Origin: Parcubacteria group bacterium ADurb.Bin115
Lineage (GTDB): Bacteria; Patescibacteriota; Patescibacteriia; Patescibacteriales; UBA12465
Assembly (NCBI GenBank): GCA_002070735.1
Contig: MWDX01000003.1
Span: 1 to 60,407 of the forward strand
Length of the DNA stretch: 60,407 nt
Direction of reading: 5' to 3'
Positions within the stretch are counted from its first letter, which is position 1. Each line of letters opens with the position of its first letter. Under the pieces are notes generated by a model. That model saw only the letters and a program-made list of their open reading frames with translations, ran no database searches and had not been told where the DNA came from. Positions 2,704 through 59,974 of the stretch are shown here, piece after piece. The position numbers were made by a program, and so were the translations under genes.

Positions 2704-3780
2704 TTATTCTCCAACTTTTCCCTGCCCGTGATTAATAGGATCATCAGGCAAAGAGGAATCTAAATCTGATAAAGAACCGGAAATTTCTACACCCGTCAAT
2801 AAATCTTTGGCACGATACTGAAGTTTAGTCAAGAGTGGAGCATTTTGCCCTATTTGATCGATAGTCGGCGTTAACACTAAAACGAAATTAGCAATATAAT
2901 CGCCGCCAGTGGCCGCTAAAGAATCTAACTGCCAAACCAAAAGTCTTGAATCAGGATTATAGCTTGATTTTCCGGCCAAAAGACTTTGTTCCTCACCTAA
3001 TTCGACGCCTCTGGGTAATTTAGCGCTGAAAACTAAATTTTCCAAATCATTGCCCTGGTTTAAAGCTTTAATAATCAACCAGTATTTAGTGGGCACCCCG
3101 ATGATTGGCGGCACCGGACCAATGCCCAGCTGATCGCCCTGAGGGCTATGAAAATAGACGGATGCTTTCAGTTTTAAGTCGCTTAAGATATTAATAGCGG
3201 GCCAAGATAATTCTTTAAAAGAAGACAGACCTCCAGCATATGCCTTGGTTATTAATTTACCTTTTAGAGTTCTGGGAAAATCTTTTTTTTCTGTTCGCCA
3301 AGATGCTTGAAGCAGTAAATCACCCTCTTCACCGATAGAAATTTCTTTCAGGCTAATTTTATCGCCGTCTAAAGACAGATTATGATTAAGACTATCTTCG
3401 GCCTTTATTATTTTTAAACTAAAAGCGGCACTGTCAAAATCTAAACTAAAATCCAAATTATCAATCTTCACGTTGCCGTTATTACGATAATGGATACGCC
3501 ATTCTAAATTATTACCGATTTCAATATAATTTTTTTCTTGGTAAATCTCTGTTTGAATATCGAGAATACGTCCGTCTTGGCCACCATTCAATTGATGAAG
3601 GCTAGTATTTAGAGAACTGATAACGCCCGGTTTATACAAAGCTAAACGCAAAGAGATGCCGATAAGCAACAAAATTAATATAACCAAAGAAATATCTAAA
3701 ACTAGATGCCAGCGATTTCGGCGATAAAATTTTTCTTGGCGGCGATACCACCAGCGGGAAATAAATTTAGAAAATTTCAT
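2704..3780 (-). CDS. membrane-anchored hypothetical protein with beta-rich repeat-type ectodomain
   Basis: It has an N-terminal TM helix (LVLDISLVILILLLIGISL). Its C-terminal ~150 aa are clearly similar to the C-terminus of the 667-aa protein at 39907..41910. Confidence 0.65.
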   Translation of the reverse strand: MKFSKFISRWWYRRQEKFYRRNRWHLVLDISLVILILLLIGISLRLALYKPGVISSLNTSLHQLNGGQDGRILDIQTEIYQEKNYIEIGNNLEWRIHYRNNGNVKIDNLDFSLDFDSAAFSLKIIKAEDSLNHNLSLDGDKISLKEISIGEEGDLLLQASWRTEKKDFPRTLKGKLITKAYAGGLSSFKELSWPAINILSDLKLKASVYFHSPQGDQLGIGPVPPIIGVPTKYWLIIKALNQGNDLENLVFSAKLPRGVELGEEQSLLAGKSSYNPDSRLLVWQLDSLAATGGDYIANFVLVLTPTIDQIGQNAPLLTKLQYRAKDLLTGVEISGSLSDLDSSLPDDPINHGQGKVGE

Positions 3781-6933: not shown

Positions 6934-8526
6934 TTATAAAACTTCCGCGCCAAAATTTTCCATTAATCCCCCTAAAACGCCGCCCGGTTTTTTTGTTTCC
7001 GTAATGGGCGCGGCGGCAACATCGGTCGGTCCGGCGGCAACAGGCATGTCTGTGCCCAACTCTAAATTTTCATCCAATAACGCTTCAATCGTCACCCTAC
7101 CCTGAAAAACCTCCGCTAAGGTTTCCTCCATTATCGCCTTAATTGAGGGATCGAGAAGGCGGTCACGATGAAATTTATATTTAAAGCGTAAAGAGATAAG
7201 ACCGGATTTTAAAGCTAAGGGTATACAATTCTGTAAAACAAAAAATAAAGAATGATTATGTTTTTTTATCTTAATCAATATTTCCGGCCACCGAGCCGCT
7301 ACCTCCGCTTCATTCAAATCAGCCGCTATTATTGGCGGTGCGTCCACCGCCCTCTCCTTGGGTGTTGAGGCCTCCTTGACTAAAGACGCCGTCGGGCGGT
7401 TGCTGGCGTTATTCACAGATGATTTATCATCCGACCCCGCCTTAAGACAGAGTTCAACCACGGCCATTTCAAAAGGAAGCTGAGGAATAGAGGCGGATTT
7501 TTCTTGAGATAATTCCAAAAAACGACGCAGGATGCGTAAGCAAGCGGCTAAAGGTAATTCCGCCGATAAGTGGCTTATGCGTAATTCCAGTGATTCTCCA
7601 AAATCCAAACCCAATTTTTCTGCTAATCCCGGCTGAACGGATTGCAACATGATTTTCCTTAAAATTAAAAGTATTTCCTCTAAAAAATTCTTAAAATTAA
7701 CACCATTATCAGCCAACTGATTAATTAAAGACACCGCCCCGCCTGGGTTTTTTTTAGCCAAAAAATCAAGCAAATCCAAGGCTTCCTGATTGTGATGTCG
7801 AGGCAAAATTAGCTCCACCTCTTCTACTCCTATCTTTTTTTCACCCAAAGCTAACACTTGTCCCAAAAGACTCTCGGCATCACGCAAATACCCTCCTGAT
7901 TGGCGAGCAATATCTTCTAAAACTTCGCGACTAATTTCTATTTTTTCTTGAGAAGCGATAAAACTTAATTTTTTTACGATTTCCGCCGGACTGATGCGCT
8001 TGAAATCAAAACGCTGGCACCGAGAAATAATTGTCGCCGGCACTTTATGAACCTCCGTGGTACAAAGAATGAAGAGTACCTGCTTCGGCGGCTCTTCAAT
8101 AATTTTTAATAAGGCATTAAAAGCCGACAAAGAGAGCATGTGCACTTCGTCGATAATAAAAACCCGCATTTTCCCGCTAGGTGCCAAACGGGCAGAAGCA
8201 ATAATATTTTCACGAACATTATCCACGCCGGTATTGGAAGCAGCGTCTATTTCCATGACATCCAGCGATTGCCCCCGCCTAATACTAAGACAGGCGGCGC
8301 ACTCTCCACAGGGTTCAGACTCCCCCGACTTTCGTCGCTCGCAATTTACCGCTTGAGCCAAAACACGAGCCATGCTTGTTTTGCCGACGGCCCGTGGACC
8401 GCAAAAAAGATAAGCTTGACCGAGCTTTGCGTCAGCTAATTCATTCTGAAGGGTAATTTTCAAATGATTCTGCCCTAAAATATCGGCAAATTTTTGGGGA
8501 CGATAATCACGATAAAGTGTCGGCAT
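6934..8526 (-). CDS. dnaX: DNA polymerase III subunit gamma/tau
   Basis: It starts YRPQKF..., has Walker A GPRAVGKTS, the zinc module CGECAAC, Walker B IIDEVHML and sensor SRCQRF. Confidence 0.93.
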   Translation of the reverse strand: MPTLYRDYRPQKFADILGQNHLKITLQNELADAKLGQAYLFCGPRAVGKTSMARVLAQAVNCERRKSGESEPCGECAACLSIRRGQSLDVMEIDAASNTGVDNVRENIIASARLAPSGKMRVFIIDEVHMLSLSAFNALLKIIEEPPKQVLFILCTTEVHKVPATIISRCQRFDFKRISPAEIVKKLSFIASQEKIEISREVLEDIARQSGGYLRDAESLLGQVLALGEKKIGVEEVELILPRHHNQEALDLLDFLAKKNPGGAVSLINQLADNGVNFKNFLEEILLILRKIMLQSVQPGLAEKLGLDFGESLELRISHLSAELPLAACLRILRRFLELSQEKSASIPQLPFEMAVVELCLKAGSDDKSSVNNASNRPTASLVKEASTPKERAVDAPPIIAADLNEAEVAARWPEILIKIKKHNHSLFFVLQNCIPLALKSGLISLRFKYKFHRDRLLDPSIKAIMEETLAEVFQGRVTIEALLDENLELGTDMPVAAGPTDVAAAPITETKKPGGVLGGLMENFGAEVL

Positions 8527-8546: not shown

Positions 8547-11084
8547 TTAAACCTTGCGCAAATCAGACGCCAGAGCCTCTGTCCGTCTAATAATATCAGC
8601 CTCTACAATTGTTCGGTCTTGACCAAATTTCAAACTGCTCAAAGACCGAATTTTTGCGGAAATACCCTCGCGCTTTACTCCTAGAAGCGGCCAGATTGTT
8701 TTCATAGAAAAGGGCCGGCTAGGACTATTGTCTACCAATAATTTAATATATGCCGTGCCCTTGTCAATATTAATCAAATCATAGACATTAAAAACCGGGG
8801 CAAATTCTTTTACCAAAAACTCCGCATCTTCGGTCCCTATTTTGAAGGCAATTATCGTGCCGACATTACCAAACACGGCATCCTTAATTTCTGTATTATT
8901 ATTTTTAGTCAACTGACCTATATATTGGTGAGCGATAATCAAATTCAAAGCATATTTACGGGCTTCCGAAAGTATCTGACAAATAGAATTAGTGGTAAAA
9001 TTCTGAAACTCATCGATATATAAATAAAAATCTTTACGCGCCTCGGCCGGCATGTCGGTACGAGATAAAGCCGCCATCAAAATTTTACCGACAACAATCA
9101 TCCCTAAAAGATAAGCATTCATTTCCCCAACAACCCCTTTGGGTAAATCAATCAACAAAATCTTTTGCCTATCCATCAAATCGCGAAAATTAAAAGAGCT
9201 CTTCTGCTGACCAATAATCGGTCGCATCATATCGTTGGAAATAAAAGCAGTCAACTTGGAGGTGATATAGGGGACGATATTGGCCAAAGCAGCGTCGCCC
9301 CCCGCCTTTTCCGCTTCCTTTTTCCAAAAATCAATCACCGTGCGGTTATGACAACGAGATAATTTTAAACGGCGGAAATTTTCATCCGATAAAACTTTTG
9401 GTACTTCCATTAAAGTAGAACCGCTCTCCGGGTCATCCATGATTAATAAGAGAGCGTTACGCATATATTGCTCAAACATTGGTCCGCCTGTTTGTTTTAA
9501 ATCATACAATTTATCAAAAATTCCAATCATTTCATTAATCACAAAGCTTTTCTGCTCAGGGTAACGCGGATCATATTCCAATAAATTTAAAGCCAAGGGT
9601 CTCTCTAGGTTGGCTGGAGAAAAAATTACAACATCCTCTACTCTTTCCGGAGGCATGCGCTGTAAAATATCTTCAATTAAATCGCCATGAGGATCAAGGA
9701 CACAAACGCCCTCTCCGTTCTGAATATCCTGGATCGCCATATTGGCCAATAAAACCGATTTACCGACACCGGATTTACCAATGATGTAAGTATGCCGGCG
9801 TCGGTCTTGACGCTTTATCCTGATGTCTTTTTTGACGCCTCGATAAACATTCTGACCTAAAAGTAAGCCCTCACTGGGCAAATCGGCCGGCGCCGGTGCA
9901 TTTTTAGCGGTCAGCCATAAAATATTAGGCGTTTCCATGTGCTTTAAAGGTAGGTGAAAAACACTGGTTAATTCTTCAGTATTTAAGAGAAAAGAATAGT
10001 CTTCGCGGAAACGACGATAGATAAAATCCTTAATTTGCCTTTCTTGTCCGCTTTTAAGGGAGCGAGAAAAATGATTGCCATAACTATAATTATTATATTC
10101 AGTAAAAACACTGGCAACGTTTTCCAAATAGACATTAGCCCGTTCTTTACTTGAGGAAGAAACCACTATCCTAAGATTAACATCAAGTCCGGCGCGCAAA
10201 TTTTTTTCTTCAATAGACTTTACCGTCTCCTCTTCTAAGGCGGAAAGGCGTTTAGACACGGATTCATTCAAATTTTTTGTCTTATTTTTAATACCAGTAC
10301 CAGCTCCTAAAATATCTCTAAAGAATGAAAAAACTTTATATACTCCCCCACCGCTAATACCTTCACGGACAGAATTTTTTTCATGTATCCTTTTAACTAT
10401 ACTCCTAAGCTTTCGATGCCAGGCGCCGTTGGCGCTGCGCACGACATATTGGACGGCAACACTTTCATCCTTATCTAACTTAGACATGATGTTTATTAAA
10501 GAATTAAGCGGATCAACCTCTATTTTCTGATAAGTGCGTAGAGGCAGAGCGAAGTGCTTCTTGGTTTTTAAGGAAGCCGCCACCACCTGGCCGCTCATGC
10601 TAAAAATATTATAATCTTCAATTTCTTCAATTACCGCTTCCGGATAATGAGCCGTAATCTGCTGTTCCAAATACCGCGACAAAGCCCGTGGGGCCACCGC
10701 ATAAAAAGCAATTTTATGATGATTGGCCACGATTTCAAAGGCAAAATGGTCATTACGGCCAAGTAGCCAAGCAGTAAAGCCTCGCTGGGCTTTTAAGCCG
10801 CCGATACTGGCAAAAATTGTTTCTCCTCTGGCAATTTCCTCACGCATCTGCTGTAAGGAAAAATCCTTATTCTCATCTTGAGGCTTCTCTTTGGGCAACC
10901 TGATTAAAAAAACCTGATGATTAAAATAAGCGTTATCCGTGGCAAAACGGCGCACAAAAAAACGGAAAAGAAAAACAAGTCCTACAAGCAAGGCAATGAC
11001 CACCAATAAAAATAAAACAGAAAAAACAACAGCGCCACTATCGCTCTTAGAAAATATAATTAAATTATCTAAAAATGAAGCCAT
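8547..11084 (-). CDS. membrane-anchored VirD4/TraG/HerA-superfamily P-loop ATPase with a ~400-aa N-terminal domain of unknown function
   Basis: It has an N-terminal TM helix. Walker A is GKSGVGKS (nt 9756-9779) and Walker B-like is LYIDEFQNF. The C-terminal half resembles type IV coupling-protein or DUF87-type ATPases. The N-terminal half is paralogous to ORF 45688..47127. Confidence 0.8.
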   Translation of the reverse strand: MASFLDNLIIFSKSDSGAVVFSVLFLLVVIALLVGLVFLFRFFVRRFATDNAYFNHQVFLIRLPKEKPQDENKDFSLQQMREEIARGETIFASIGGLKAQRGFTAWLLGRNDHFAFEIVANHHKIAFYAVAPRALSRYLEQQITAHYPEAVIEEIEDYNIFSMSGQVVAASLKTKKHFALPLRTYQKIEVDPLNSLINIMSKLDKDESVAVQYVVRSANGAWHRKLRSIVKRIHEKNSVREGISGGGVYKVFSFFRDILGAGTGIKNKTKNLNESVSKRLSALEEETVKSIEEKNLRAGLDVNLRIVVSSSSKERANVYLENVASVFTEYNNYSYGNHFSRSLKSGQERQIKDFIYRRFREDYSFLLNTEELTSVFHLPLKHMETPNILWLTAKNAPAPADLPSEGLLLGQNVYRGVKKDIRIKRQDRRRHTYIIGKSGVGKSVLLANMAIQDIQNGEGVCVLDPHGDLIEDILQRMPPERVEDVVIFSPANLERPLALNLLEYDPRYPEQKSFVINEMIGIFDKLYDLKQTGGPMFEQYMRNALLLIMDDPESGSTLMEVPKVLSDENFRRLKLSRCHNRTVIDFWKKEAEKAGGDAALANIVPYITSKLTAFISNDMMRPIIGQQKSSFNFRDLMDRQKILLIDLPKGVVGEMNAYLLGMIVVGKILMAALSRTDMPAEARKDFYLYIDEFQNFTTNSICQILSEARKYALNLIIAHQYIGQLTKNNNTEIKDAVFGNVGTIIAFKIGTEDAEFLVKEFAPVFNVYDLINIDKGTAYIKLLVDNSPSRPFSMKTIWPLLGVKREGISAKIRSLSSLKFGQDRTIVEADIIRRTEALASDLRKV

Positions 11085-11087
11085 AGA

Positions 11088-11564
11088 CTAAAGGTTGCGT
11101 TTTATTTTTAAAATATTATCCGCTTTTATTTTAGCTTCTTGCTCTAAAAAAAATTTATTAACATGGGGAATGAGACCGAGCCAACGCTTGATTAAAGAAA
11201 TTATTTTATCTACCCTAACCTTCGCTTTGTTTAGCAAAAGACTAATTTTATTGGCAGTTTTTTCTCCCTCCTCTTTAAAACGTCGCTGTTCTTCCGGATT
11301 CATCTGCAAAAATACCTGATCCAAGCCAGATGACATAATATTTTCAATTACTTGTAATTGCTGAGATTGGGCGTCGCCACCGCCGGACTTAAGCGAAGTT
11401 GACGCCAAGGACGTAGGCGTGGGAAAAGTCGAAGGTAATTGCTCATTTTTTTTCTCCATCGGTCGAAGCAAAACTTTCTCTTGATTATTTTCAAAAGAAT
11501 TGCCTTCTAATGGCCGATCGGGCGCGCTCGGCGGAGTTTGTTCAATTTTATTCTCACCAGGCAT
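11088..11564 (-). CDS. hypothetical protein (low-complexity N-terminus, helical C-terminus)
   Basis: This 158-aa ORF is 3 nt upstream of the ATPase gene and 2 nt downstream of the ferredoxin ORF, which suggests operonic packing. No recognisable motif. Confidence 0.6.
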   Translation of the reverse strand: MPGENKIEQTPPSAPDRPLEGNSFENNQEKVLLRPMEKKNEQLPSTFPTPTSLASTSLKSGGGDAQSQQLQVIENIMSSGLDQVFLQMNPEEQRRFKEEGEKTANKISLLLNKAKVRVDKIISLIKRWLGLIPHVNKFFLEQEAKIKADNILKIKRNL

Positions 11565-11566
11565 AA

Positions 11567-11737
11567 TTAAAGACTAATAGCCTTAACTGGGCAGCTGGCC
11601 GCCGCGTTCTGGGCACAACCAGAAGTCTCTTGAGAAATAGGTTCAGATTTACCGTCGGCGTTCATCTGAAATGTTTTCGGACAAATTCCGGCGCATAAAC
11701 CGCAACCAATGCATTTTTCTTGATCAACTTTAATCAT
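11567..11737 (-). CDS. small single-cluster [4Fe-4S]/[3Fe-4S] ferredoxin (56 aa)
   Basis: Manual translation gives MIKVDQEKCIGCGLCAGICPKTFQMNADGKSEPISQETSGCAQNAAASCPVKAISL. It carries CxxCxxCxxxCP plus a distal CP motif. It is not in the ORF track because it is under 60 aa. Confidence 0.75.
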   Translation of the reverse strand: MIKVDQEKCIGCGLCAGICPKTFQMNADGKSEPISQETSGCAQNAAASCPVKAISL

Positions 11738-11740
11738 ATT
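11735..11740. repeat. target-site duplication, left copy (CATATT)
   Basis: The identical hexamer directly abuts the outer ends of both inverted repeats (11735-11740 and 12826-12831). Confidence 0.7.
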
Positions 11741-11768
11741 AGGGATGTGTGAATTAATTATGTGTAAA
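11741..11768. repeat. IS terminal inverted repeat (left)
   Basis: AGGGATGTGTGAATTAATTATGTGTAAA is the exact reverse complement of 12798-12825. Confidence 0.9.
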
Positions 11769-12734
11769 ATTTGTTATTTTTCTGTTATTGCAATTGACGC
11801 TGAATTTGGTTCTAGTTAGCGCTGTGGCACGCGATTGAAGCGATTTAGTTGTCCTCTGATATTTACATCTATCTCGGATGATATTATTGAAAGATTCCAT
11901 GCAGTTGGTGGTGTGGGGCAAATTTAATTCTGGATGATGAATGTAGTTTCTAAATTCAGTTAAACGGCGCAAAAGTTCATTTCCCAATCGTCGGTAATAA
12001 TATGGGCACCCAGGAGAGTTAATTAATTCATATAGTTCTAAAGAATATTCTGACTCATGATTAATTGTTTTTAGTAACTTACAAACAGTGGCATAGATTT
12101 CTTTCCGAATCGGATGATCGGGCATATTTTTCCAAAACCCCAATCTAATTTGCAGTTGCGCTAGGAGATGGAAATGGCATCGCTGGCAAATCCAGCCATA
12201 CTTTCTTCCCATGCCATCAACTCCTCTAAATCCATCGGAAACTAGGGCTAAAACACGATTTCTAATATCTTCTGGAATAGACGCAAAAGCCACTTTCCAA
12301 CTCCCGAGAGATTCTCTTCCGGGCAATAGTATTGGATCAAGCAGATAGGCTTTGCCGCCCGCTTTTGAGCGGATGGCGAATGAATATAAAGTCCAATATT
12401 TTTGCTCGAGAAAGAATCTGACGCCGTCGGCTAGAATAATTAACCAACCATCGGGATACTTGTTTGTTCTTTCTGTTTTTAATATTGATTTGTTTAAGCG
12501 ATGACATAATCCGGAACGGCTGATTGAATTTGAGTGCTTGGCAATATGAGTTGTTTTTTCTCCTTGACCAAGGACTCTGTCAATTAGGCTAGAGCTAATT
12601 CTCCTGTTCTTTCGGCCCCGCTTCTTTTTCCAGTTTGTCCACGTTTTTCCGCACTCCGAACACTTCCTTCTTTTGCCGCCAATTTTATATATTTTCGCCT
12701 GGCAGCAAGGCGATTTCTCGTGTAATTTATTCAT
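11754..12734 (-). CDS. DDE transposase with N-terminal zinc ribbon (IS256/Mutator-like signature; family tentative)
   Basis: It has the Zn ribbon CCQAKIYKIGGKRRKCSECGK. Candidate catalytic residues are ILADGV, LVSDGFRG...QRCHFHL and TTNCMESFNNIIR (D-~65-D-~113-E spacing). The stop codon lies inside the left IR. Confidence 0.85.
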   Translation of the reverse strand: MNKLHEKSPCCQAKIYKIGGKRRKCSECGKTWTNWKKKRGRKNRRISSSLIDRVLGQGEKTTHIAKHSNSISRSGLCHRLNKSILKTERTNKYPDGWLIILADGVRFFLEQKYWTLYSFAIRSKAGGKAYLLDPILLPGRESLGSWKVAFASIPEDIRNRVLALVSDGFRGVDGMGRKYGWICQRCHFHLLAQLQIRLGFWKNMPDHPIRKEIYATVCKLLKTINHESEYSLELYELINSPGCPYYYRRLGNELLRRLTEFRNYIHHPELNLPHTTNCMESFNNIIRDRCKYQRTTKSLQSRATALTRTKFSVNCNNRKITNFTHN

Positions 12735-12797
12735 ACACGAGAATTATCTCCAAAAACGTCAAAATTTACTATTACATTAGCTAATATTTTAAATATC

Positions 12798-12825
12798 TTT
12801 ACACATAATTAATTCACACATCCCT
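12798..12825. repeat. IS terminal inverted repeat (right)
   Basis: TTTACACATAATTAATTCACACATCCCT is the reverse complement of 11741-11768. Confidence 0.9.
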
Positions 12826-12831
12826 CATATT
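12826..12831. repeat. target-site duplication, right copy (CATATT)
   Basis: See the left copy. Confidence 0.7.
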
Positions 12832-12897: not shown

Positions 12898-12906
12898 ATT
12901 ATAGCA
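12898..12906 (-). promoter_or_regulatory. candidate extended -10 promoter (TGcTATAAT) for the ferredoxin/ATPase operon, now separated from it by the IS
   Basis: The minus-strand sequence reads ATATGCTATAAT. The -35 is poor. It is about 60 nt upstream of the reconstructed pre-insertion start codon. Confidence 0.3.
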
Positions 12907-19690: not shown

Positions 19691-21433
19691 TTAAACCATA
19701 TTATCTTTTCTTTCTTTAACATATTTAGTCCATTCTTCTGCAATGTCGACCAAAATTTTAAAGGGAGCTTCAATAATAAAATCAAAGATAAAGATAAAAA
19801 TATTAATCCGCGAAACATTCCTAGAAAGCCATTTACCCGCCATAATAATCGGCATGTAAAAAAGGTCGAGTAAAAAGGAAAACAGGTTTTCTTTCTTTTC
19901 CACCACTAGTAATTCCTTAACGCCACGAGTGACAATAATGCTAAAAAAACTCACAAACGCCAAAAAGAATAGGAAAATAGTAATACTCACCCAATTAAAA
20001 TTAACCTTTGTCAGTGCCCAGATGATAAAATAAATAGAGACAAAGAAAGCAACGCCATAAATAAGGTTAAAAATAAAGTTCATTACCCCTCCCCTTTTCT
20101 TGGGGTTACGCAAAACAATTGGCTGTTGACGTTCCGAGCCGACAAAAGCAATTTCTTTAACACCCTCAACTATCCGGTCGGTGTTGTCGTCCCCGGGAAT
20201 ACGAGTAAAAGAAACAACAAAGAAAAGAAGTATGGCCGGAAAAGAGATGTTGATAGCTAGAGCCACCGGATTTAGGGGTTCGTTAAACCAATGGATGGCC
20301 GGGACTTCTATTAAAAAAACAAAAATAGATTTGGTTAAAAAAATATAAACAATACTGCGTAAAGCCGCTCGCCATAACCTGCTTTTCGCTTTCTTATATT
20401 TCTTATTACAAACTTTACGGACAGAACTAATAAAGGTATTAGGGTTCTGTTTAAATTCATTATAAACTTTAGCCGGATCACCGTCGATTGTTTCCTGCAA
20501 AACAGTAAAATAAAGAGAGTAACGTTGCACTAAACGGTCGAGTTGTTTCTGTAAAGGATGTTTTAATTGATAATCAATGCTCGCCCGAAGATTATTAATA
20601 TTAGAGGCTATCTCCTTAATTTTCTCATCGGCGGGAGCAAACATCGGGTCGATTTTATCTCCAATCCAGCCTTGATTGTAATATTTAAACAAAACAAAAG
20701 AAAGCATATCCGTGTCAAAGCGAGAATAAGTGCGGCTAATACTGAGATAGATCTGAATGTCTAAATCTTGACCATAGGGCAAATCTGGCGGCAACTTCAA
20801 AATACGGCTAAGCGTGTCAAACATAACGTTAACCATCGCTTGCTTGGTTTGATTGCGGATAAGATTTTCTTCTATTTCGCAAGCAGCCAAATTTAAAATC
20901 CAAACGACCAGACGATTTTTTTCCTGGATATCATTTTTAGCCTTATTTAAATCAGTCTTAAGGCCGAAGTCTGAATCGAAGGCCCTTAAACACTCCTGTC
21001 TGAGACGTAAATATTTATTTAAAATATGAGACACCTCCGCCACTTTAGTCTCAGGCAAAGAATTGTTGGGCAGATAGCTGGCTTGTATTAATTCGGATAA
21101 TAGATGCCGAGATAAGTCTTCGGTACTCGGCATTTTTAATAAGCCTTCAATTACTATCTGGCGCTTTAAAATACGCGCGATAGCATTTTTTCTAAGAAGA
21201 TGATCCTCCTTATAATCAACAGTGTTTCTTATTTTTTCATAAAAGAAGGCCATTTTGGAAATCAACTCAGAAACCTGCAAACGAGGCGATTCGTCGTCAT
21301 CATCAACTTTACGGTTTAAATCATTATAAATCGCCTGAAAAAGTTTTTTGGCATTATCGTTTAACTCTTCACTACTGCTTTCAATTTTTTTAGTGACTAA
21401 ATTAGGGCTAACCATATAGATTTTTTCATTCAC
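19691..21433 (-). CDS. large hypothetical membrane protein (soluble helical N-domain plus about 5 C-terminal TM helices)
   Basis: This 580-aa ORF is 2 nt upstream of rsmI. It has hydrophobic segments from about residue 350. I cannot name a family with confidence. Confidence 0.6.
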   Translation of the reverse strand: MNEKIYMVSPNLVTKKIESSSEELNDNAKKLFQAIYNDLNRKVDDDDESPRLQVSELISKMAFFYEKIRNTVDYKEDHLLRKNAIARILKRQIVIEGLLKMPSTEDLSRHLLSELIQASYLPNNSLPETKVAEVSHILNKYLRLRQECLRAFDSDFGLKTDLNKAKNDIQEKNRLVVWILNLAACEIEENLIRNQTKQAMVNVMFDTLSRILKLPPDLPYGQDLDIQIYLSISRTYSRFDTDMLSFVLFKYYNQGWIGDKIDPMFAPADEKIKEIASNINNLRASIDYQLKHPLQKQLDRLVQRYSLYFTVLQETIDGDPAKVYNEFKQNPNTFISSVRKVCNKKYKKAKSRLWRAALRSIVYIFLTKSIFVFLIEVPAIHWFNEPLNPVALAINISFPAILLFFVVSFTRIPGDDNTDRIVEGVKEIAFVGSERQQPIVLRNPKKRGGVMNFIFNLIYGVAFFVSIYFIIWALTKVNFNWVSITIFLFFLAFVSFFSIIVTRGVKELLVVEKKENLFSFLLDLFYMPIIMAGKWLSRNVSRINIFIFIFDFIIEAPFKILVDIAEEWTKYVKERKDNMV

Positions 21434-34128: not shown

Positions 34129-35136
34129 CTATTTTTTCTTCCCGGCTAGCTGGCCGCAAGCGGCGCTAATTCCCCGCCCTTGGCTGTGACGCTCGGTAAC
34201 AGCCACGCCTAAAGATTCAAGCTTTTTCTTAAATTCTTTAATTCTGGCGGGAGACGAAGCCTGAAATTTACCGGTCGGATTGTAAGGAATAAGATTAACC
34301 AAATAAAGAGGCTTTTTCATTAATTGCGCCAGAGCCAGCGCATCGTCTTCGCCATCATTCACGTTCTTAATCATAATATACTCGAACATCACCCGCCGCC
34401 CAGTCTTACGGATATACTCGTCTACTGCCTTTAAAATACTAGTAATCGAATATTTTTTGGCAATAGGCATCAGCTGTTCACGCAAAGAATCAACGGCGGC
34501 GTGCAGAGAAATCGCCAAATTAACCTGTAATTTCTCCGTCGATAATTTTTTAATACCTTCAATGATGCCGACGGTAGAAACCGACATCCGGCGGGAACCA
34601 AGGTTAAATTTTTCTGGATCATTTAAAATTTTCACCGCTTTAATAAATTGCTCATAATTTAAAAAAGGTTCGCCCATACCCATGAACACCACATTATTTA
34701 TACTTTCGCCTTTATTTTCCTGTTTTAAAAAGCGCGCCCAAAAAATAAATTGCTGGACAATCTCATCGGCGCTTAAATTTCTAAAAAAACCTCCTTGGCC
34801 GGTAGCGCAAAAAGCACAACCCAGAGGACAGCCCGCCTGTGAAGATAGACAAATCGTGTGGCGACCGTCACGATGTCGCATTAAAACTGTTTCCACGGAA
34901 ACGCCGTCAGCCCAAGTCAATAAAGCTTTTAAACTAGACTTATCGCCGGGATCAACTGAAATTTCGGCCGTAATATCCAAGGGGCAATCTTGATTCAAAC
35001 GTTCTCTTAAATTTAAAGGCAGGACACTAGCTTGAGCCCAATCAGAAATCAACTCTCCATAAAGAGCTTGATAAACTTGTCGAAAACGAAATTTTGGTTC
35101 CGTCTGTAAAATTCCGGATAATTTAGATAAATCCAT
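34129..35136 (-). CDS. rlmN: 23S rRNA/tRNA adenine-C2 methyltransferase RlmN (radical SAM)
   Basis: It has the CxxxCxxC motif SSQAGCPLGCAFCATG and the C-terminal catalytic Cys region (ISAACGQL). Confidence 0.93.
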   Translation of the reverse strand: MDLSKLSGILQTEPKFRFRQVYQALYGELISDWAQASVLPLNLRERLNQDCPLDITAEISVDPGDKSSLKALLTWADGVSVETVLMRHRDGRHTICLSSQAGCPLGCAFCATGQGGFFRNLSADEIVQQFIFWARFLKQENKGESINNVVFMGMGEPFLNYEQFIKAVKILNDPEKFNLGSRRMSVSTVGIIEGIKKLSTEKLQVNLAISLHAAVDSLREQLMPIAKKYSITSILKAVDEYIRKTGRRVMFEYIMIKNVNDGEDDALALAQLMKKPLYLVNLIPYNPTGKFQASSPARIKEFKKKLESLGVAVTERHSQGRGISAACGQLAGKKK

Positions 35137-44497: not shown

Positions 44498-45688
44498 TTA
44501 TTCTACTAATATCTTACGATATATTTCTAAAGTTTGGCGCGCACATTTCTGCCAGCTAAAAACATTAACTCTTTTTAAACCGCGCGCTATCAATTGTTGG
44601 CGGTAATCTTCATTTTCAAATAAAAATTCTAATTTAGATAACATATCCGCTTGGTTATAGGGATCAAAATAAAGAGCGGCATCACCAATAACTTCCGGCA
44701 AACTAGCCTGATTAGAAGAAACAACCGGACAAGAATGACTCATTGCTTCTAAAGGCGGCAAACCAAAACCTTCATATAAAGAAGGAAAAACATAAAATAA
44801 AGCCCGGCGATACAACACGGCTAAATCGGCATCAGGAACATATCCCGGAAAAATAACTTTATTATTATCACCACCTTCGCTTTGCCAAAGCGATAGGGCG
44901 GACGCCTTTTCCTTAACACGATGATAAAAATAATCGTCTTTACCCACCATTACCAACTTGAGATGATGATGGCGGGAAAGCAAATTATTAAAGACAGTCA
45001 GCAAAACTTCTAAATTTTTATGAGGATAAGCGTTGCCCACATATAACAAAAAGGGTTCGCTAATCCGATAACGTTGTAAAACTTGTTTCTCCTCTATTTC
45101 GCCAATAATTTCTTTTTTGTCTAAGTCCGCTACCCCTTCGTAAGTAACAAATAATTTTTTAGGATTAGCCTTAAACTTTTTGATAATATCTCTACGGGTA
45201 AATTCAGAAACGGTAATTATGGCTCGGGCTCGCCTTATAGCCGTTCTAATGACCAAGCGATAGGCGGCTTGCTTAAACCAATAAAAAGCTGCTGGGAGCA
45301 TTGAGGCGCGGCGACTGGAGAAACGGGTTAGTATTAAATCATGAATAGTGACGACAAAGGGCACCGGGGTCAATATGGGGACATTGAAATGGGGAAAGTG
45401 GACCAAATCTAACTTTTCTTTTTTTAAAATCAAAGGAAAAAATAATTGCTCCCGCCATGAATACCAACGCCAAGGAACTTCTATTTTGCGAACATTGGGA
45501 TGGCTAGACTTAAAATCTTTAAAATTATCCGGACTCAAAAAAATAACATATTCAAATTCACTGCTAGTGACGGTCATCGATACGATATTATCAACCACTT
45601 CTTGAACATAACGCCCCAAGCCCTTACCTAGAGGACCATAAAAACGAGCATCAATACCGATTCTTTTTTTTGTTTTCTTATTAAACAT
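44498..45688 (-). CDS. GT4-family (GT-B fold) glycosyltransferase
   Basis: It has the EX7E-type motif region FPSLYEGFGLPPLEAM. Its start overlaps the upstream stop (TAATG). Confidence 0.9.
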   Translation of the reverse strand: MFNKKTKKRIGIDARFYGPLGKGLGRYVQEVVDNIVSMTVTSSEFEYVIFLSPDNFKDFKSSHPNVRKIEVPWRWYSWREQLFFPLILKKEKLDLVHFPHFNVPILTPVPFVVTIHDLILTRFSSRRASMLPAAFYWFKQAAYRLVIRTAIRRARAIITVSEFTRRDIIKKFKANPKKLFVTYEGVADLDKKEIIGEIEEKQVLQRYRISEPFLLYVGNAYPHKNLEVLLTVFNNLLSRHHHLKLVMVGKDDYFYHRVKEKASALSLWQSEGGDNNKVIFPGYVPDADLAVLYRRALFYVFPSLYEGFGLPPLEAMSHSCPVVSSNQASLPEVIGDAALYFDPYNQADMLSKLEFLFENEDYRQQLIARGLKRVNVFSWQKCARQTLEIYRKILVE

Positions 45689-47127
45689 TAAACAAATGGT
45701 AAATTATCAGGCACATTCTGTTTTTCTTCTTCCTTTATATGATTTTTACTCTCGCTCTGTGATTGACTAGTCGCGCTATGCAAAATTTCCACACTGAATG
45801 GTTCCAATAAGGGAGCGGCCATATCATTAACTATCGGCAAAGTAGAAGGGGCATCCGCTTTTCTGCCAGGAGCTTTCTGAATTAACGGCGCCTTGACATT
45901 AGCTTCTATCGGGAAATGCCATAGAGTTGCCAATTCCTCAATATTATATAAACCAGGATTGCGCCCCGCCGTATCTTCTCTGGCGATATAATTAGCCATA
46001 ATCGCATTCTTTTTGCGTAGCAGGCGCTTATCTTTATTAAAATAAGCAGTTTTAGTCATTGTCAATTTAACATCCGGCTTTAGATTGTTTAAATCAAGAG
46101 AAGCAAACTGTTTCATATAGCCAATTACACCGTTTACCACCTTATTCTTGTTCATTAAATCTTTACGAGCCACATAAACTACGCGAATTTTTGCCTCGAA
46201 AGATAGTTTTGCGGCTTTTAAATGGATGGCCTCTATCTGCCTCTTCTGCTTAGGTGTAAGTTCTTGCATTGATAAGCCCTTATCTTCGGTGGACTTGCTT
46301 TCAATATCGCCCCAGATACTATAAATAGCTTCGCTGATATTGCCCAGCCATTCCACAAATTTAGAAGCGGCACTTGATTGTTTTTTCTTCTTGCCTAAAA
46401 TTTTATCAACCACCTTATCCGTTTCTGCCACCCAATCAAAACCTATGGGAATAATCACCAGTTGCATCCATAACTGCTCGCCTTCCCGCAAAGAACTGCA
46501 CAAATCCATTAAAGATGCCATCGGATCTTTAAACTGCGTTTCCGATTCGCCAAAATTATGTTCAAATTCCTGATAAAGCTTAATGGGAAAGGCCCAATTG
46601 TTAGACTGTATGAATTCTGCCCCCCAAACATCATAATCCTCATCCGGAAAATGATGAGGAACAGTATCAACATAATCATCAACCTCGGAAATCTCGGCAT
46701 CAGGATATTGGGAATAGACAGACGTTTCAATTAAATCACGAAATTCAACGGGCGTCCTAATTAAAAATTGAGTATAACCCTCAATGCTAACAATTTCGTA
46801 ACTGAAGGAGACCTGAAATTTACCCTCAAACCATTTTTCAAAAAAATTAGTAGAACCATGAGCGCCGGCTAAATAGCTAAACATGTTCTCGGCGGCTTTA
46901 GGCGATTGTTCATTACCCTTCGGAATATCGATTGCCAGAAGGATAAATTGCAAATTCTTGGCCGCCCACTGAGATCTGATTTTTTGAAGATAAATTAAAG
47001 AGATGCCATATAACAAAACAGCGGCAATAACCATCCAGCCGATATTAATAAAAAATACCCACAGCATCTGATCAGCTGGCAAAGCGAAAAAGGCGTCCAA
47101 TCTGGAAGTATTAATCGTAATTTCCAT
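45688..47127 (-). CDS. membrane protein paralogous to the N-terminal domain of the 845-aa ATPase (no NTPase domain)
   Basis: It has one TM helix near the N-terminus. Collinear similarity to ORF 8547..11084 includes QYPDAEISEVDDY vs HYPEAVIEEIEDY and YNIEELATLWHFP vs LNTEELTSVFHLP. Confidence 0.7.
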   Translation of the reverse strand: MEITINTSRLDAFFALPADQMLWVFFINIGWMVIAAVLLYGISLIYLQKIRSQWAAKNLQFILLAIDIPKGNEQSPKAAENMFSYLAGAHGSTNFFEKWFEGKFQVSFSYEIVSIEGYTQFLIRTPVEFRDLIETSVYSQYPDAEISEVDDYVDTVPHHFPDEDYDVWGAEFIQSNNWAFPIKLYQEFEHNFGESETQFKDPMASLMDLCSSLREGEQLWMQLVIIPIGFDWVAETDKVVDKILGKKKKQSSAASKFVEWLGNISEAIYSIWGDIESKSTEDKGLSMQELTPKQKRQIEAIHLKAAKLSFEAKIRVVYVARKDLMNKNKVVNGVIGYMKQFASLDLNNLKPDVKLTMTKTAYFNKDKRLLRKKNAIMANYIAREDTAGRNPGLYNIEELATLWHFPIEANVKAPLIQKAPGRKADAPSTLPIVNDMAAPLLEPFSVEILHSATSQSQSESKNHIKEEEKQNVPDNLPFV

Positions 47128-59155: not shown

Positions 59156-59974
59156 TTAAAGCCATTTTTCTAAAGATTTAAAAAAATCTTCAAGTTTTAT
59201 TTTTAAATCTTGATTCAAATCAAGATGAGAATAGCTAGCTAATTGCTCAGATAAAGAAGAATGAAGACGTTTTAGCAAATCGCGCTCATAGACAGAAACT
59301 TCATTTTCCTGTAGGTTTTCGGCAAGAATTTCTAATTCTTTCGGGCTTAAAGACAAATAGAAAGCGGGGATATTCTTGAGACTGTCCAATACTAATTTTT
59401 TTCCCTCTACCCGAGCCCCATATTTTACTTTGGCGCCGCCGCGCATCATTTTTTGCCTAATCTTTTCTTCTTTCTTACTCGGACCAACATTATCTTGACG
59501 ATCGATAACTTCGTCGATACCACAAATAACCGCTCCGCTCTCGCGGTCGATTATTAATTGATCAACGCCATTATTATAATCATCATAAACGGAAGAACGC
59601 ACCACGATAAAATTATCAGGCAAAACTCTCTGCAACATTAAGGTTAAAGCCGCTTCAGTCAATGATGCCGGACTTTTCTCTTTATCTTGGCGCCATTGCT
59701 CTACACTTTTGCCACTTTCCTGCGCCCAGGTTTGCTCTTGAATATCTATTAATAATTGGTCCGATTCTTTATCTGGTTGTGTTTCGGGTATACGCAAACG
59801 CGCTTTTTCATCCAGCCAATCTTGACCATAAATTTTATTGTAATAGTCAGCTTTAATCGCTAACTGTTCATTCAAGAAAGATGATAATTTTTCCAGATTA
59901 AACTGGTTTTTTTTCTCTTGTTCTAATTTAATCTTGCTGCCCACATTAATATTGGGCAAATATTCAATCGGCAT
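59156..59974 (-). CDS. hypothetical protein
   Basis: This is a 272-aa soluble, charged protein, tightly packed between neighbours. No motif recognised. Confidence 0.55.
   Translation of the reverse strand: MPIEYLPNINVGSKIKLEQEKKNQFNLEKLSSFLNEQLAIKADYYNKIYGQDWLDEKARLRIPETQPDKESDQLLIDIQEQTWAQESGKSVEQWRQDKEKSPASLTEAALTLMLQRVLPDNFIVVRSSVYDDYNNGVDQLIIDRESGAVICGIDEVIDRQDNVGPSKKEEKIRQKMMRGGAKVKYGARVEGKKLVLDSLKNIPAFYLSLSPKELEILAENLQENEVSVYERDLLKRLHSSLSEQLASYSHLDLNQDLKIKLEDFFKSLEKWL

What the first reader, a model, noticed from the sequence alone, without database searches (positions are those of the whole stretch)
8547..11737. Ferredoxin, a 158-aa protein and a VirD4/TraG-like ATPase packed as one operon
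Three minus-strand genes are separated by only 2 and 3 nt. They are a 56-aa CxxCxxCxxxCP ferredoxin (missed by the ORF track), a 158-aa protein with a disordered N-terminus and helical C-terminus, and an 845-aa membrane-anchored P-loop ATPase. The ATPase has Walker A GKSGVGKS and Walker B-like DEFQNF, and its C-terminal half looks like a type IV coupling protein or HerA/FtsK-type translocase. No other type IV secretion or conjugation genes (VirB4, relaxase, pilins) are present in the window. I know of no described system that pairs an iron-sulfur electron carrier with this ATPase class. It may be a stand-alone membrane translocation or assembly machine.
Basis: partly seen in the sequence, partly recalled or inferred. 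Interest (0 to 1): 0.7.

Follow-up and report, generated by a model that had tools for sequence, protein, structure and literature searches.

The report
Domesticated coupling-protein ATPase with small partner
The three genes are real and probably co-transcribed, but the conserved unit is a Patescibacteria (CPR) chromosomal copy of a conjugation-type "coupling protein" ATPase and a small unnamed partner protein, while the ferredoxin is a neighbour found in only one clade.

Summary
Three minus-strand ORFs (ferredoxin 11567-11737, a 158-aa protein I call p158 at 11088-11564, ATPase 8547-11084) are separated by 2 and 3 nt, and all three are conserved in related genomes.

The ATPase is a VirD4/TraG-superfamily type IV coupling protein (T4CP). 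It has a single N-terminal membrane helix and a ~350-aa N-domain (DUF8128). It is homologous over its full length to the coupling proteins of monoderm conjugative plasmids, which sit next to a relaxase, and to proteins of Bacillus phages. Here it lies in a housekeeping block (L27 | fdx-p158-ATPase-dnaX-serS). It is as conserved as serS (median 72% identity), and the window has no T4SS, relaxase or integrase genes. Orphan T4CPs of this kind were already counted in Patescibacteria (PMC12102498).

Across 80 related loci, p158 sits directly upstream of the ATPase in 72 of 75 evaluable cases. The ferredoxin is confined to one clade, with one loss. Outgroup clades have p158-ATPase without it and carry a different extra gene downstream. 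Gaps of 5 nt or less are ordinary in this genome, and the ATPase and p158 show no redox signature.

Best reading: a domesticated T4CP motor plus its adaptor p158, with an ordinary monocluster ferredoxin sharing the transcript. This is a new variant of a known kind, of moderate interest.

The parts
8547..11084 (-). 845-aa membrane-anchored coupling-protein-type (VirD4/TraG superfamily) P-loop ATPase
   Evidence: ORF. Pfam PF10412, PF02534, PF01935 and PF12696 score above their cut-offs. TrwB is the best solved-structure match by sequence. hhalign gives probability 99.9 to a plasmid coupling protein over aa 88-799. More than 2,500 homologs were found, and the top 120 are 69% identical or more.
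10953..11033 (-). Single N-terminal transmembrane helix (aa 18-44). The positive charges after it predict N-terminus out, C-terminus in
   Evidence: Hydropathy is 2.3 or more in all 46 homologs, and no second membrane segment is present. AlphaFold2 gives a helix at aa 15-51.
9885..10922 (-). Cytoplasmic N-domain (aa ~55-400), Pfam DUF8128 in the precomputed annotations of homologs
   Evidence: PF26449 is listed for every homolog. AlphaFold2 pLDDT is 70-90. The domain is shared with the plasmid coupling protein and with phrog_5156. It has no sequence match in PDB or the local Pfam copy. All 12 significant Foldseek hits of the whole model are VirB4/TrwK.
9756..9779 (-). Walker A, GKSGVGKS (aa 436-443)
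   Evidence: Invariant in 46 homologs. Coordinates.
8997..9026 (-). Walker B region, YLYIDEFQNF (aa 687-696)
   Evidence: Invariant in 46 homologs. It aligns to the Walker B of TrwB. Coordinates.
11088..11564 (-). p158, a small cytoplasmic partner protein. Residues 1-61 are acidic and disordered. Residues 62-158 form a helical bundle with the motif WLxLIPGVNKFFLEQEAKIKADKI
   Evidence: It lies directly upstream of the ATPase in 72 of 75 evaluable loci, with a median gap of 4 nt. The family has 1,794 clusters at 50% identity and no Pfam entry. AlphaFold2 model. No Foldseek match.
11567..11737 (-). 56-aa single-[4Fe-4S] ferredoxin, the first gene of the transcription unit in this clade only
   Evidence: Pfam Fer4_13 at E 1e-14. 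The cluster ligands C9, C12, C15 and C49 are invariant across the 50 orthologs aligned, out of 51 loci with an ortholog. Its presence is confined to one clade of the ATPase tree.
12898..12906 (-). Conserved extended -10-like element TGCTATAAT in the L27-ferredoxin spacer, the probable native promoter of the unit
   Evidence: It is conserved in the alignment of the window, with the insertion sequence removed, against L001 and L006. Coordinates. Promoter function is inferred, not shown.
11741..12825 (.). 1,085-bp insertion sequence between that promoter and the ferredoxin start codon. It has a transposase at 11754-12734 (minus strand), perfect 24-bp terminal inverted repeats, and a 6-bp target duplication CATATT at 11735-11740 and 12826-12831 that contains the ferredoxin ATG
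   Evidence: The empty site aligns with L001 and L006. No transposase hit in any of the 80 related loci. Weak ISH6 and IS256 matches.
6934..8526 (-). dnaX (DNA polymerase III tau/gamma), 20 nt downstream of the ATPase, a deeply conserved neighbour
   Evidence: dnaX follows the ATPase directly in 44 of 73 evaluable loci and after one gene in 17 more. Uhrbacteria contigs show the same arrangement.

Best explanation
The conserved unit is a two-gene module, p158 plus a chromosomally fixed (domesticated) type IV coupling protein.

The ATPase belongs to the long-N-domain branch of the VirD4/TraG family. That branch serves as the coupling protein next to the relaxase in monoderm conjugative plasmids, and it also occurs in Bacillus phages.

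Inferred mechanism:
- One N-terminal helix tethers the protein to the membrane.
- The DUF8128 N-domain and the P-loop motor face the cytoplasm.
- As in other coupling proteins, it probably forms a ring that uses ATP to recruit a substrate and push it at the membrane.
- The substrate is most likely DNA or a nucleoprotein.
- p158 would act as its dedicated cytoplasmic adaptor or regulator.

Whether the motor docks on the chromosomal type IV secretion channel, which these bacteria encode elsewhere, or acts alone is unresolved. I slightly favour docking.

The ferredoxin is an ordinary single-cluster electron carrier. In one clade a rearrangement placed it at the head of the same transcript. It is co-transcribed but is not a component of the machine.

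Shown here: the gene calls, the homologies, the synteny statistics and the clade restriction. Inferred: ring formation, the substrate, the adaptor role and co-transcription.
For: Family assignment:
- Pfam T4CP families score above their cut-offs.
- TrwB is the best solved-structure relative by sequence.
- hhalign gives probability 99.9 and E 1.4e-32 over aa 88-799 to the 886-aa protein that lies directly upstream of the relaxase in a B. subtilis conjugation cluster. The VirB4-like ATPase of the same plasmid matches only at the P-loop.
- The homolog in an Embleya plasmid lies between a VirB4-like ATPase and a relaxase.
- Phage relatives: phrog_5156 matches at E 2e-86. The homologs in phages D6E and vB_BceS-M2 lie among partition, integrase and DNA-replication genes.

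Domestication:
- The context is housekeeping genes and GC content is uniform.
- Median identity is 72%, equal to serS (73%) and above dnaX (53%).
- The position is syntenic in 80 genomes.

p158 partnership:
- It is adjacent in 72 of 75 evaluable loci, with a median gap of 4 nt.
- The pair is also present in Uhrbacteria and Kuenenbacteria contigs.

Ferredoxin as a passenger:
- It is restricted to one clade, with one loss.
- Short gaps are typical of this genome.
- There is no redox signature in the ATPase or p158.
- Distant homologs of the ferredoxin lie in unrelated contexts.

Against: - No experiment or expression data were available.
- The AlphaFold2 model of the motor domain is poor (pLDDT below 50).
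- p158 has no recognisable fold relative, so its adaptor role rests on synteny alone.
- Within its clade the ferredoxin is never separated from p158 (maximum gap 54 nt in 46 loci), whereas insertions do occur between L27 and the ferredoxin. A functional link within that clade is therefore not excluded. Polarity on the downstream genes could equally explain this pattern.
- Scores against curated conjugative TraD and VirD4 models are far below their cut-offs.
- The T4CP homologue of a cultured Saccharibacterium was reported as non-essential while its T4SS was essential (PMC12102498). This argues against obligatory coupling to the channel.
Confidence: 0.55

Rival explanations
1. A true three-component machine. 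The ferredoxin delivers electrons to, or senses redox state for, the p158-ATPase translocase, so translocation depends on the cell's redox state.
For: The ferredoxin-p158 gap has a median of 7 nt and never exceeds 54 nt in 46 loci, while the spacer upstream of the ferredoxin tolerates insertions. The triad is kept in about 51 species. The ferredoxin's cluster ligands are under strong constraint.
Against: The ferredoxin is absent from all outgroup clades, which keep p158-ATPase, and it was lost once within its own clade (L031). The ATPase shows no cysteine or fixed-residue difference between loci with and without the ferredoxin, and p158 has no cysteine. Short gaps are the rule in this genome. 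No paper in the library links T4CPs to a ferredoxin as parts of one system.
Confidence: 0.12
2. A stand-alone DNA pump that does not depend on any type IV secretion channel. It might support chromosome or plasmid DNA handling at the membrane, linked to replication, or DNA uptake or export. p158 would be its DNA- or substrate-binding accessory.
For: The ATPase is adjacent to dnaX in 61 of 73 evaluable loci, across all clades. Phage homologs must work without a T4SS and lie among partition and replication genes. Only 148 of 5,713 Patescibacteria T4CP genes are near virB4, and the T4CP homologue was non-essential in an organism whose T4SS is essential (PMC12102498).
Against: Coupling proteins are often encoded away from the channel genes in bona fide conjugation systems (PMC12102498). 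The dnaX adjacency may be inherited gene order only. FtsK, the usual septal DNA pump, is discussed in work on the Saccharibacterium TM7x, so a replacement role may not be needed; I did not open those papers. No DNA-binding domain was recognised in p158.
Confidence: 0.25
3. An ordinary conjugative coupling protein that belongs to an integrated mobile element.
For: The closest annotated relatives are plasmid coupling proteins next to relaxases. An insertion sequence lies 4 nt upstream of the ferredoxin.
Against: None of the 53 ORFs I scanned in the 60-kb window is a relaxase, VirB4, integrase or pilin. The locus is in the same position between L27 and dnaX-serS in dozens of species. Its 72% median identity equals that of serS. 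GC content is uniform. The insertion sequence is a private insertion that is absent from all 80 relatives.
Confidence: 0.02

Closest known systems
Coupling proteins (T4CP) of monoderm conjugative plasmids with a long N-domain, for example WP_121549396.1 ('DUF87 domain-containing protein', 886 aa) of B. subtilis plasmid NZ_CP032854.1 and WP_331738717.1 of Embleya plasmid NZ_CP108778.1
   Same: They share the whole architecture, N-domain plus P-loop motor. hhalign gives probability 99.9 over 649 columns at 26% identity. tblastn E-values reach 1e-50.
   Different: The plasmid proteins sit next to a relaxase, a VirB4-like ATPase and TcpE- or PrgI-family genes. The window protein has none of these nearby. 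It is chromosomal, syntenic across species, evolves slowly, and is paired with p158, which has no counterpart in the two plasmid loci examined.
TrwB of plasmid R388 (PDB 1E9R/1GKI), the structural prototype of VirD4-type coupling proteins
   Same: It is the best solved-structure match by sequence. The Walker A and Walker B regions align (E 4e-6).
   Different: By established knowledge, TrwB has two N-terminal membrane helices and no ~350-aa N-domain. Similarity here is limited to the motor core. Scores against curated TraD and VirD4 models are far below their cut-offs.
Orphan VirD4-type T4CP homologues of Patescibacteria (Quinonero-Coronel et al. 2025, PMC12102498)
   Same: Same phylum and same situation: a T4CP gene encoded away from virB4 with no relaxase. 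This locus very probably belongs to the set counted in that paper.
   Different: In the passages I read, the paper does not describe the N-domain, the p158 partner, the dnaX linkage or any ferredoxin neighbour. I did not check its supplementary tables.
VirB4/TrwK ATPase of R388 (PDB 7O41, 7O43, 8RTB, 8RTD)
   Same: All 12 significant Foldseek hits of the AlphaFold2 model are VirB4/TrwK chains (E 7e-7 to 2.5e-5). The overall layout also matches: an N-domain of about 400 aa followed by a C-terminal motor.
   Different: No sequence-level similarity was found to a VirB4-like protein beyond the P-loop or to any PDB chain for the N-domain alone. TM-scores are only about 0.2, and the motor part of the model is unreliable. 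The resemblance is a lead, not a membership.
Single-[4Fe-4S] ferredoxins of the Fer4_13/Fer4_15 type (the Pyrococcus and Thermotoga type, from my own knowledge)
   Same: About 56-60 aa, with CxxCxxC...CP ligands and an optional extra cysteine pair.
   Different: Nothing unusual in the protein itself. Only its position at the head of the p158-ATPase transcript in one clade is unusual.

Membership tests
VirD4/TraG-type type IV coupling protein (T4CP) | P-loop NTPase with Walker A and Walker B motifs of the TrwB/VirD4 type | tested here: met
   GKSGVGKS and YLYIDE are invariant in 46 homologs and align to TrwB.
VirD4/TraG-type type IV coupling protein (T4CP) | Scores above the curated Pfam cut-offs of the T4CP families | tested here: met
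   PF10412 scores 32.1 against a cut-off of 20.5, PF02534 25.9 against 20.1, and PF12696 24.8 against 22. The margins are small.
VirD4/TraG-type type IV coupling protein (T4CP) | Reaches the NCBIfam cut-off of a named conjugative T4CP model (TraD, CD1115 VirD4-like) | tested here: not met
   TIGR03743 scores 53 bits against a cut-off of 366. NF045973 scores 38 against 250.
VirD4/TraG-type type IV coupling protein (T4CP) | N-terminal membrane anchor | tested here: met
   One hydrophobic helix at aa 18-44 is present in all 46 homologs. Classical T4CPs have two such helices (my own knowledge).
VirD4/TraG-type type IV coupling protein (T4CP) | Genetic association with a relaxase and/or mating-channel genes (VirB4 and others) | tested here: not met
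   None is present in the 60-kb window. The neighbours identified within ±7 kb in the 80 related loci are housekeeping genes, though I did not scan every flanking ORF against a profile library. The rest of the genome could not be examined.
VirD4/TraG-type type IV coupling protein (T4CP) | Hexameric ring, DNA-stimulated ATPase activity, binding of a secretion substrate | not testable with these tools
   This needs biochemistry or a reliable multimer model. The monomer model of the motor has pLDDT below 50.
Long-N-domain T4CP branch (DUF8128 + motor) of monoderm plasmids and phages | Homology that spans both the N-domain and the motor | tested here: met
   hhalign aligns aa 88-799 at probability 99.9. 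phrog_5156 matches aa 110-837 at E 2e-86. PF26449 is listed for all homologs.
VirB4-type ATPase | Sequence membership (VirB4/CagE/TrbE models) and a VirB4 N-domain | tested here: inconclusive
   The top 12 Foldseek hits are VirB4/TrwK. VirB4 NCBIfam models match only at the P-loop. hhalign to a plasmid VirB4-like protein gives probability 1.3. The N-domain profile finds nothing in PDB.
Integrated conjugative or mobile element | Integrase, relaxase or T4SS genes, foreign base composition, patchy presence among relatives | tested here: not met
   Housekeeping context, uniform GC content, and the same position in dozens of species.
Single-cluster [4Fe-4S] ferredoxin (Fer4_13/Fer4_15) | Four conserved cysteine ligands (CxxCxxC...CP) in a protein of about 55-60 aa, scoring above the Pfam cut-off | tested here: met
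   55.4 bits against a cut-off of 24.5. C9, C12, C15 and C49 are invariant across the 50 orthologs aligned.
Operon (single transcription unit fdx-p158-ATPase) | Same strand, minimal spacers, no internal terminator, shared upstream promoter | tested here: inconclusive
   The gaps are 2 and 3 nt. No terminator-like site lies between the genes on the minus strand. A conserved TGCTATAAT lies upstream. No transcript data were available, and here an insertion sequence separates that element from the ferredoxin gene.
Anti-phage defence system (PADLOC) | Match to a defence-system protein model, with its partner genes present | tested here: not met
   The ATPase gives only generic ATPase matches (mad8 at E 1e-14, HerA at the P-loop). 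p158 and the ferredoxin give none.

The most novel reading that the evidence does not exclude
The p158-T4CP pair is a formerly mobile DNA-translocation motor that ABY1-class Patescibacteria have turned into a core cellular machine. It might move DNA or nucleoprotein between the epibiont and its host, or at the membrane during replication. In the window's clade its expression or activity has become tied to a ferredoxin, which would make it a redox-gated translocase.
Probability: 0.1. Interest if true: 0.7.

Novelty: new variant of a known kind. Interest (0 to 1): 0.35.

Why it matters
Patescibacteria are tiny bacteria that depend on a host, and most of their genes have no known function. Their type IV secretion genes have been shown to be essential for epibiotic growth in one cultured species.

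This locus shows that one class of these bacteria keeps a coupling-protein motor as a core gene that evolves as slowly as a tRNA synthetase. The motor is always paired with an unnamed small protein family of about 1,800 clusters at 50% identity, and it usually lies next to dnaX.

This gives a concrete, testable two-protein module for asking what the many orphan coupling proteins of Patescibacteria do. It also removes a false lead: the ferredoxin does not define a new kind of redox-driven secretion system.

Tried and rejected
- Integrated conjugative element. Rejected on context, synteny, conservation and base composition.
- Defence system. PADLOC gave only generic ATPase matches.
- VirB4 identity. 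The Foldseek hits are all VirB4, but profile comparisons do not support membership. I keep this as a lead.
- FtsK or HerA identity. There is no FtsK_SpoIIIE Pfam hit. DUF87 is only marginal, and no NurA-like partner is present.
- p158 fold. The model is confident, but no PDB neighbour has E below 0.4. Pfam, NCBIfam and PHROGs gave nothing for p158. There is no p158-like ORF in the two plasmid loci.
- Natural fusion as proof of interaction. L068 has an in-frame p158-ATPase ORF of 1,010 aa. It is a single case, and none of the top 150 p158 representatives is a fusion. A fusion would also place p158 on the predicted outside of the membrane, so I do not rely on it.
- AlphaFold2 of the full ATPase with a 46-sequence alignment. 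The motor domain came out below pLDDT 50, so no conclusions were drawn from that part.
- R388 record for a TrwK sequence. It is not in the plasmid collection.
- Literature. 'DUF8128' returns no papers. The three papers that mention both T4CP and ferredoxin do not, by title and abstract, describe them as one system; I did not open them.


Full report
**Observation**

The gaps are 3 and 2 nt.

The small ORF is a genuine ferredoxin. It matches Pfam Fer4_13 at E 1e-14, and an ortholog lies at the same place in 51 of the 80 related loci. In the alignment of 50 of these orthologs, C9, C12, C15 and C49 are invariant. C19 and C41 vary and are often lost together. The protein is therefore a single-[4Fe-4S] ferredoxin with an optional disulfide, not a two-cluster type.

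AlphaFold2 confirms that the 158-aa protein, here called p158, is disordered over residues 1-61 and forms a confident five-helix bundle over residues 62-158.

The ATPase has one conserved N-terminal membrane helix at aa 18-44. Its Walker A (GKSGVGKS) and Walker B (YLYIDE) motifs are invariant. Its Pfam matches to TrwB_AAD_bind, T4SS-DNA_transf, DUF87 and TraG-D_C score just above the cut-offs.

**Context**

The window is a Patescibacteria (CPR) chromosome segment filled with housekeeping genes, nearly all on the minus strand. They include serS, dnaX, rpmA (L27), pyrG, metG, glycolysis genes, ribosomal proteins and the mraZ-mur cell-wall genes.

I scanned 53 ORFs of 100 aa or more. None is a VirB4, relaxase, pilin or integrase. 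GC content is uniform.

Short gaps are ordinary here. 19 of 49 same-strand gaps are 5 nt or less, and the median is 16 nt. Unrelated genes such as metG, Sua5, CvpA and a methylase are also 2-5 nt apart.

**What the ATPase is**

More than 2,500 homologs exist. The best 120 are all 69% identical or more and come from Patescibacteria or Falkowbacteria. All carry Pfam DUF8128 before the coupling-protein domains. TrwB of plasmid R388 is the best solved-structure relative by sequence.

In annotated plasmids, full-length relatives at 23-27% identity occur in Bacillus, Streptomyces, Staphylococcus, Clostridium, haloarchaea and Sulfolobus.
- In a 24.7-kb B. subtilis plasmid, the homolog lies directly upstream of a relaxase. 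A TcpE-family protein, a VirB4-like ATPase and other conjugal transfer proteins follow.
- In an Embleya plasmid, the homolog lies between a VirB4-like ATPase and a relaxase.

A profile of the window family aligns to the Bacillus protein over aa 88-799, N-domain included, at probability 99.9. The same profile matches the VirB4-like ATPase of that plasmid only at the P-loop.

The same architecture occurs in Bacillus phages. phrog_5156 matches at E 2e-86, and phage G gp156 and D6E ORF23 are homologs. In phages D6E and vB_BceS-M2 these genes lie near partition, integrase and DNA-replication genes.

The protein is therefore a member of a long-N-domain branch of the VirD4/TraG coupling-protein family that works on the DNA of mobile elements.

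The AlphaFold2 model is confident only for the N-domain. All 12 of its significant Foldseek hits are VirB4/TrwK. Sequence profiles do not confirm this, so I treat the VirB4 resemblance as a lead about deep ancestry.

**Domestication**

In 19 loci that carry all the neighbouring genes, the ATPase has a median identity of 72% to the window protein. The comparable values are serS 73%, L27 78%, pyrG 80% and dnaX 53%.

The gene occupies the same position in dozens of species. This is not how a gene of an integrated element behaves.

**Which neighbours are conserved**

I fetched 80 related loci and searched them with tblastn and with profiles built from the orthologs.
- p158 lies directly upstream of the ATPase in 72 of 75 evaluable loci, with a median gap of 4 nt. 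The pair is also present in Uhrbacteria and Kuenenbacteria contigs.
- A profile of p158 finds 1,794 clusters at 50% identity. The best 150 are all stand-alone proteins of 116-210 aa, and the family has no Pfam entry.
- dnaX follows the ATPase directly in 44 of 73 evaluable loci and after one gene in 17 more.
- The ferredoxin is found in 51 loci, plus one where it is cut by a contig end. On a neighbour-joining tree of the ATPase these loci form a single clade with one loss (L031). Every outgroup clade lacks the ferredoxin.
- In the outgroups the genes upstream of p158 are cysS, dusB or a CorA-like gene. In the window, cysS and dusB lie 45 kb away. The ferredoxin adjacency therefore looks like the product of one rearrangement.
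- The ferredoxin-less clades carry another conserved gene directly downstream of the ATPase, which I call pX. It contains the motif NYASKSKLVEGD. It is absent from the window and from all loci that have the ferredoxin. It has no Pfam or PDB match.

**Is the ferredoxin functionally tied to the ATPase?**

In favour: within its clade the ferredoxin is never separated from p158 (maximum gap 54 nt). The spacer between L27 and the ferredoxin has grown to 466-1,196 bp in five loci, and L27 is missing upstream in L042.

Against:
- The restriction to one clade described above.
- No fixed residue or cysteine difference in the ATPase between 51 ferredoxin-positive and 19 ferredoxin-negative loci, and no cysteine in p158.
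- Distant homologs of the ferredoxin lie in unrelated contexts.
- No paper in the library describes the two as one system.

The fact that nothing has inserted between the ferredoxin and p158 is also what polarity would produce. The only conserved promoter-like element (TGCTATAAT, 12898-12906) lies upstream of the ferredoxin, so an insertion inside the unit would cut off p158 and the ATPase.

I conclude that the ferredoxin shares the transcript and is probably not part of the machine. I put the probability that it is part of the machine at about 0.12.

**Mechanism**

Shown: a membrane-tethered coupling-protein-type P-loop ATPase with a cytoplasmic N-domain, constantly paired with p158.

Inferred from what is known about coupling proteins such as TrwB and VirD4: a ring-shaped motor that recruits a substrate and drives it at the membrane.

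The relatives on plasmids and phages, and the dnaX neighbourhood, point to DNA or a nucleoprotein as the substrate. p158, with its acidic disordered arm and conserved helical bundle, is the likely adaptor or regulator.

Whether the motor feeds the chromosomal type IV secretion system of these bacteria or acts alone is open. A published survey found 5,713 T4CP homologues in 2,918 Patescibacteria genomes, only 148 of them near virB4. It noted that the homologue of Southlakia epibionticum was not essential while the T4SS genes were, and that exaptation could not be ruled out (PMC12102498; see also PMC12857230).

**Novelty and verdict**

The ATPase class and its orphan status in Patescibacteria are known. 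The following were not described in what I could read: the constant p158 partner, the long N-domain shared with monoderm plasmid and phage proteins, housekeeping-level conservation, the dnaX linkage, and the alternation between clades of a ferredoxin upstream and pX downstream.

I rate this a new variant of a known kind, with interest 0.35.

**An additional finding**

A 1,085-bp insertion sequence (11741-12825) has perfect 24-bp inverted repeats and a 6-bp target duplication that contains the ferredoxin start codon. It has inserted between the conserved promoter-like element and the ferredoxin gene in this genome only.

Noticed in passing
window 11741-12825 (transposase CDS 11754-12734, minus strand; target duplications at 11735-11740 and 12826-12831): A 1,085-bp insertion sequence with perfect 24-bp terminal inverted repeats (AGGGATGTGTGAATTAATTATGTG) and a 6-bp target duplication CATATT that contains the ferredoxin ATG. 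It separates the ferredoxin-p158-ATPase unit from the conserved TGCTATAAT element. It is absent from all 80 related loci. The transposase has only weak ISH6 and IS256 matches, and this is the only copy in the window.
   Followed up: yes
L047, L048, L050, L052-L054, L057, L060, L062, L064-L070, L074, L075, L077, L079 (for example L064 10158-10736); absent from the window: In the clades that lack the ferredoxin, another conserved gene ('pX', 190-300 aa) lies directly downstream of the ATPase, and where dnaX was found nearby pX lies ahead of it. It has a disordered N-terminus and a ~130-aa C-domain with the motif EGVFDGEKMIGxDGKxYxVPxNYASKSKLVEGD. It has no Pfam or PDB match. Its presence is mutually exclusive with the ferredoxin in this sample.
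   Followed up: partly
L068 3694-6726: A single in-frame p158-ATPase fusion ORF of 1,010 aa. The neighbouring lineage L067 has two separate ORFs. A fusion would place p158 on the predicted extracytoplasmic side of the membrane helix, so it may be an assembly or stop-codon artefact.
   Followed up: partly
phage records NC_023719 (phage G gp156), NC_019544 (D6E ORF23; L091 5785-8043), OR096218 (L092 5887-8049): Full-length relatives of the ATPase, N-domain included, occur in Bacillus and Geobacillus phages (phrog_5156, function unknown). Some are annotated misleadingly as 'lipid A export ATP-binding/permease protein'. What a coupling-protein-like ATPase does in a phage is unexplained.
   Followed up: partly
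record titles of L005, L013-L017 and many others: Many of the related metagenome-assembled genomes are titled 'uncultured Gammaproteobacteria bacterium', 'Bacillota', 'Planctomycetota', 'Nanoarchaeia' or 'Saccharimonadales'. Yet they carry the same Patescibacteria gene order at 60-80% identity, so these taxonomic labels look wrong.
   Followed up: no
L010, L023, L025, L027, L031, L032, L035, L036, L038, L073 (serS position downstream of dnaX): In these loci the serS gene after dnaX is only 37-40% identical to the window's serS, against 65-84% in the other loci. This suggests a different serS type has replaced it at the same position.
   Followed up: no
window 19691-21433, 45688-47127, 2704-3780, 59156-59974 (all minus strand): Four sizeable ORFs (580, 479, 358 and 272 aa) have no Pfam match at E 0.01 or below (0.001 for the 272-aa ORF). 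The 829-aa ORF at 42000-44489 matches only DUF4012.
   Followed up: no
window 34129-35136 (minus strand): A radical-SAM protein lies 22 kb from the ferredoxin. It is the only obvious ferredoxin-dependent enzyme class I saw in the window, and a reminder that the ferredoxin has plausible ordinary clients.
   Followed up: no
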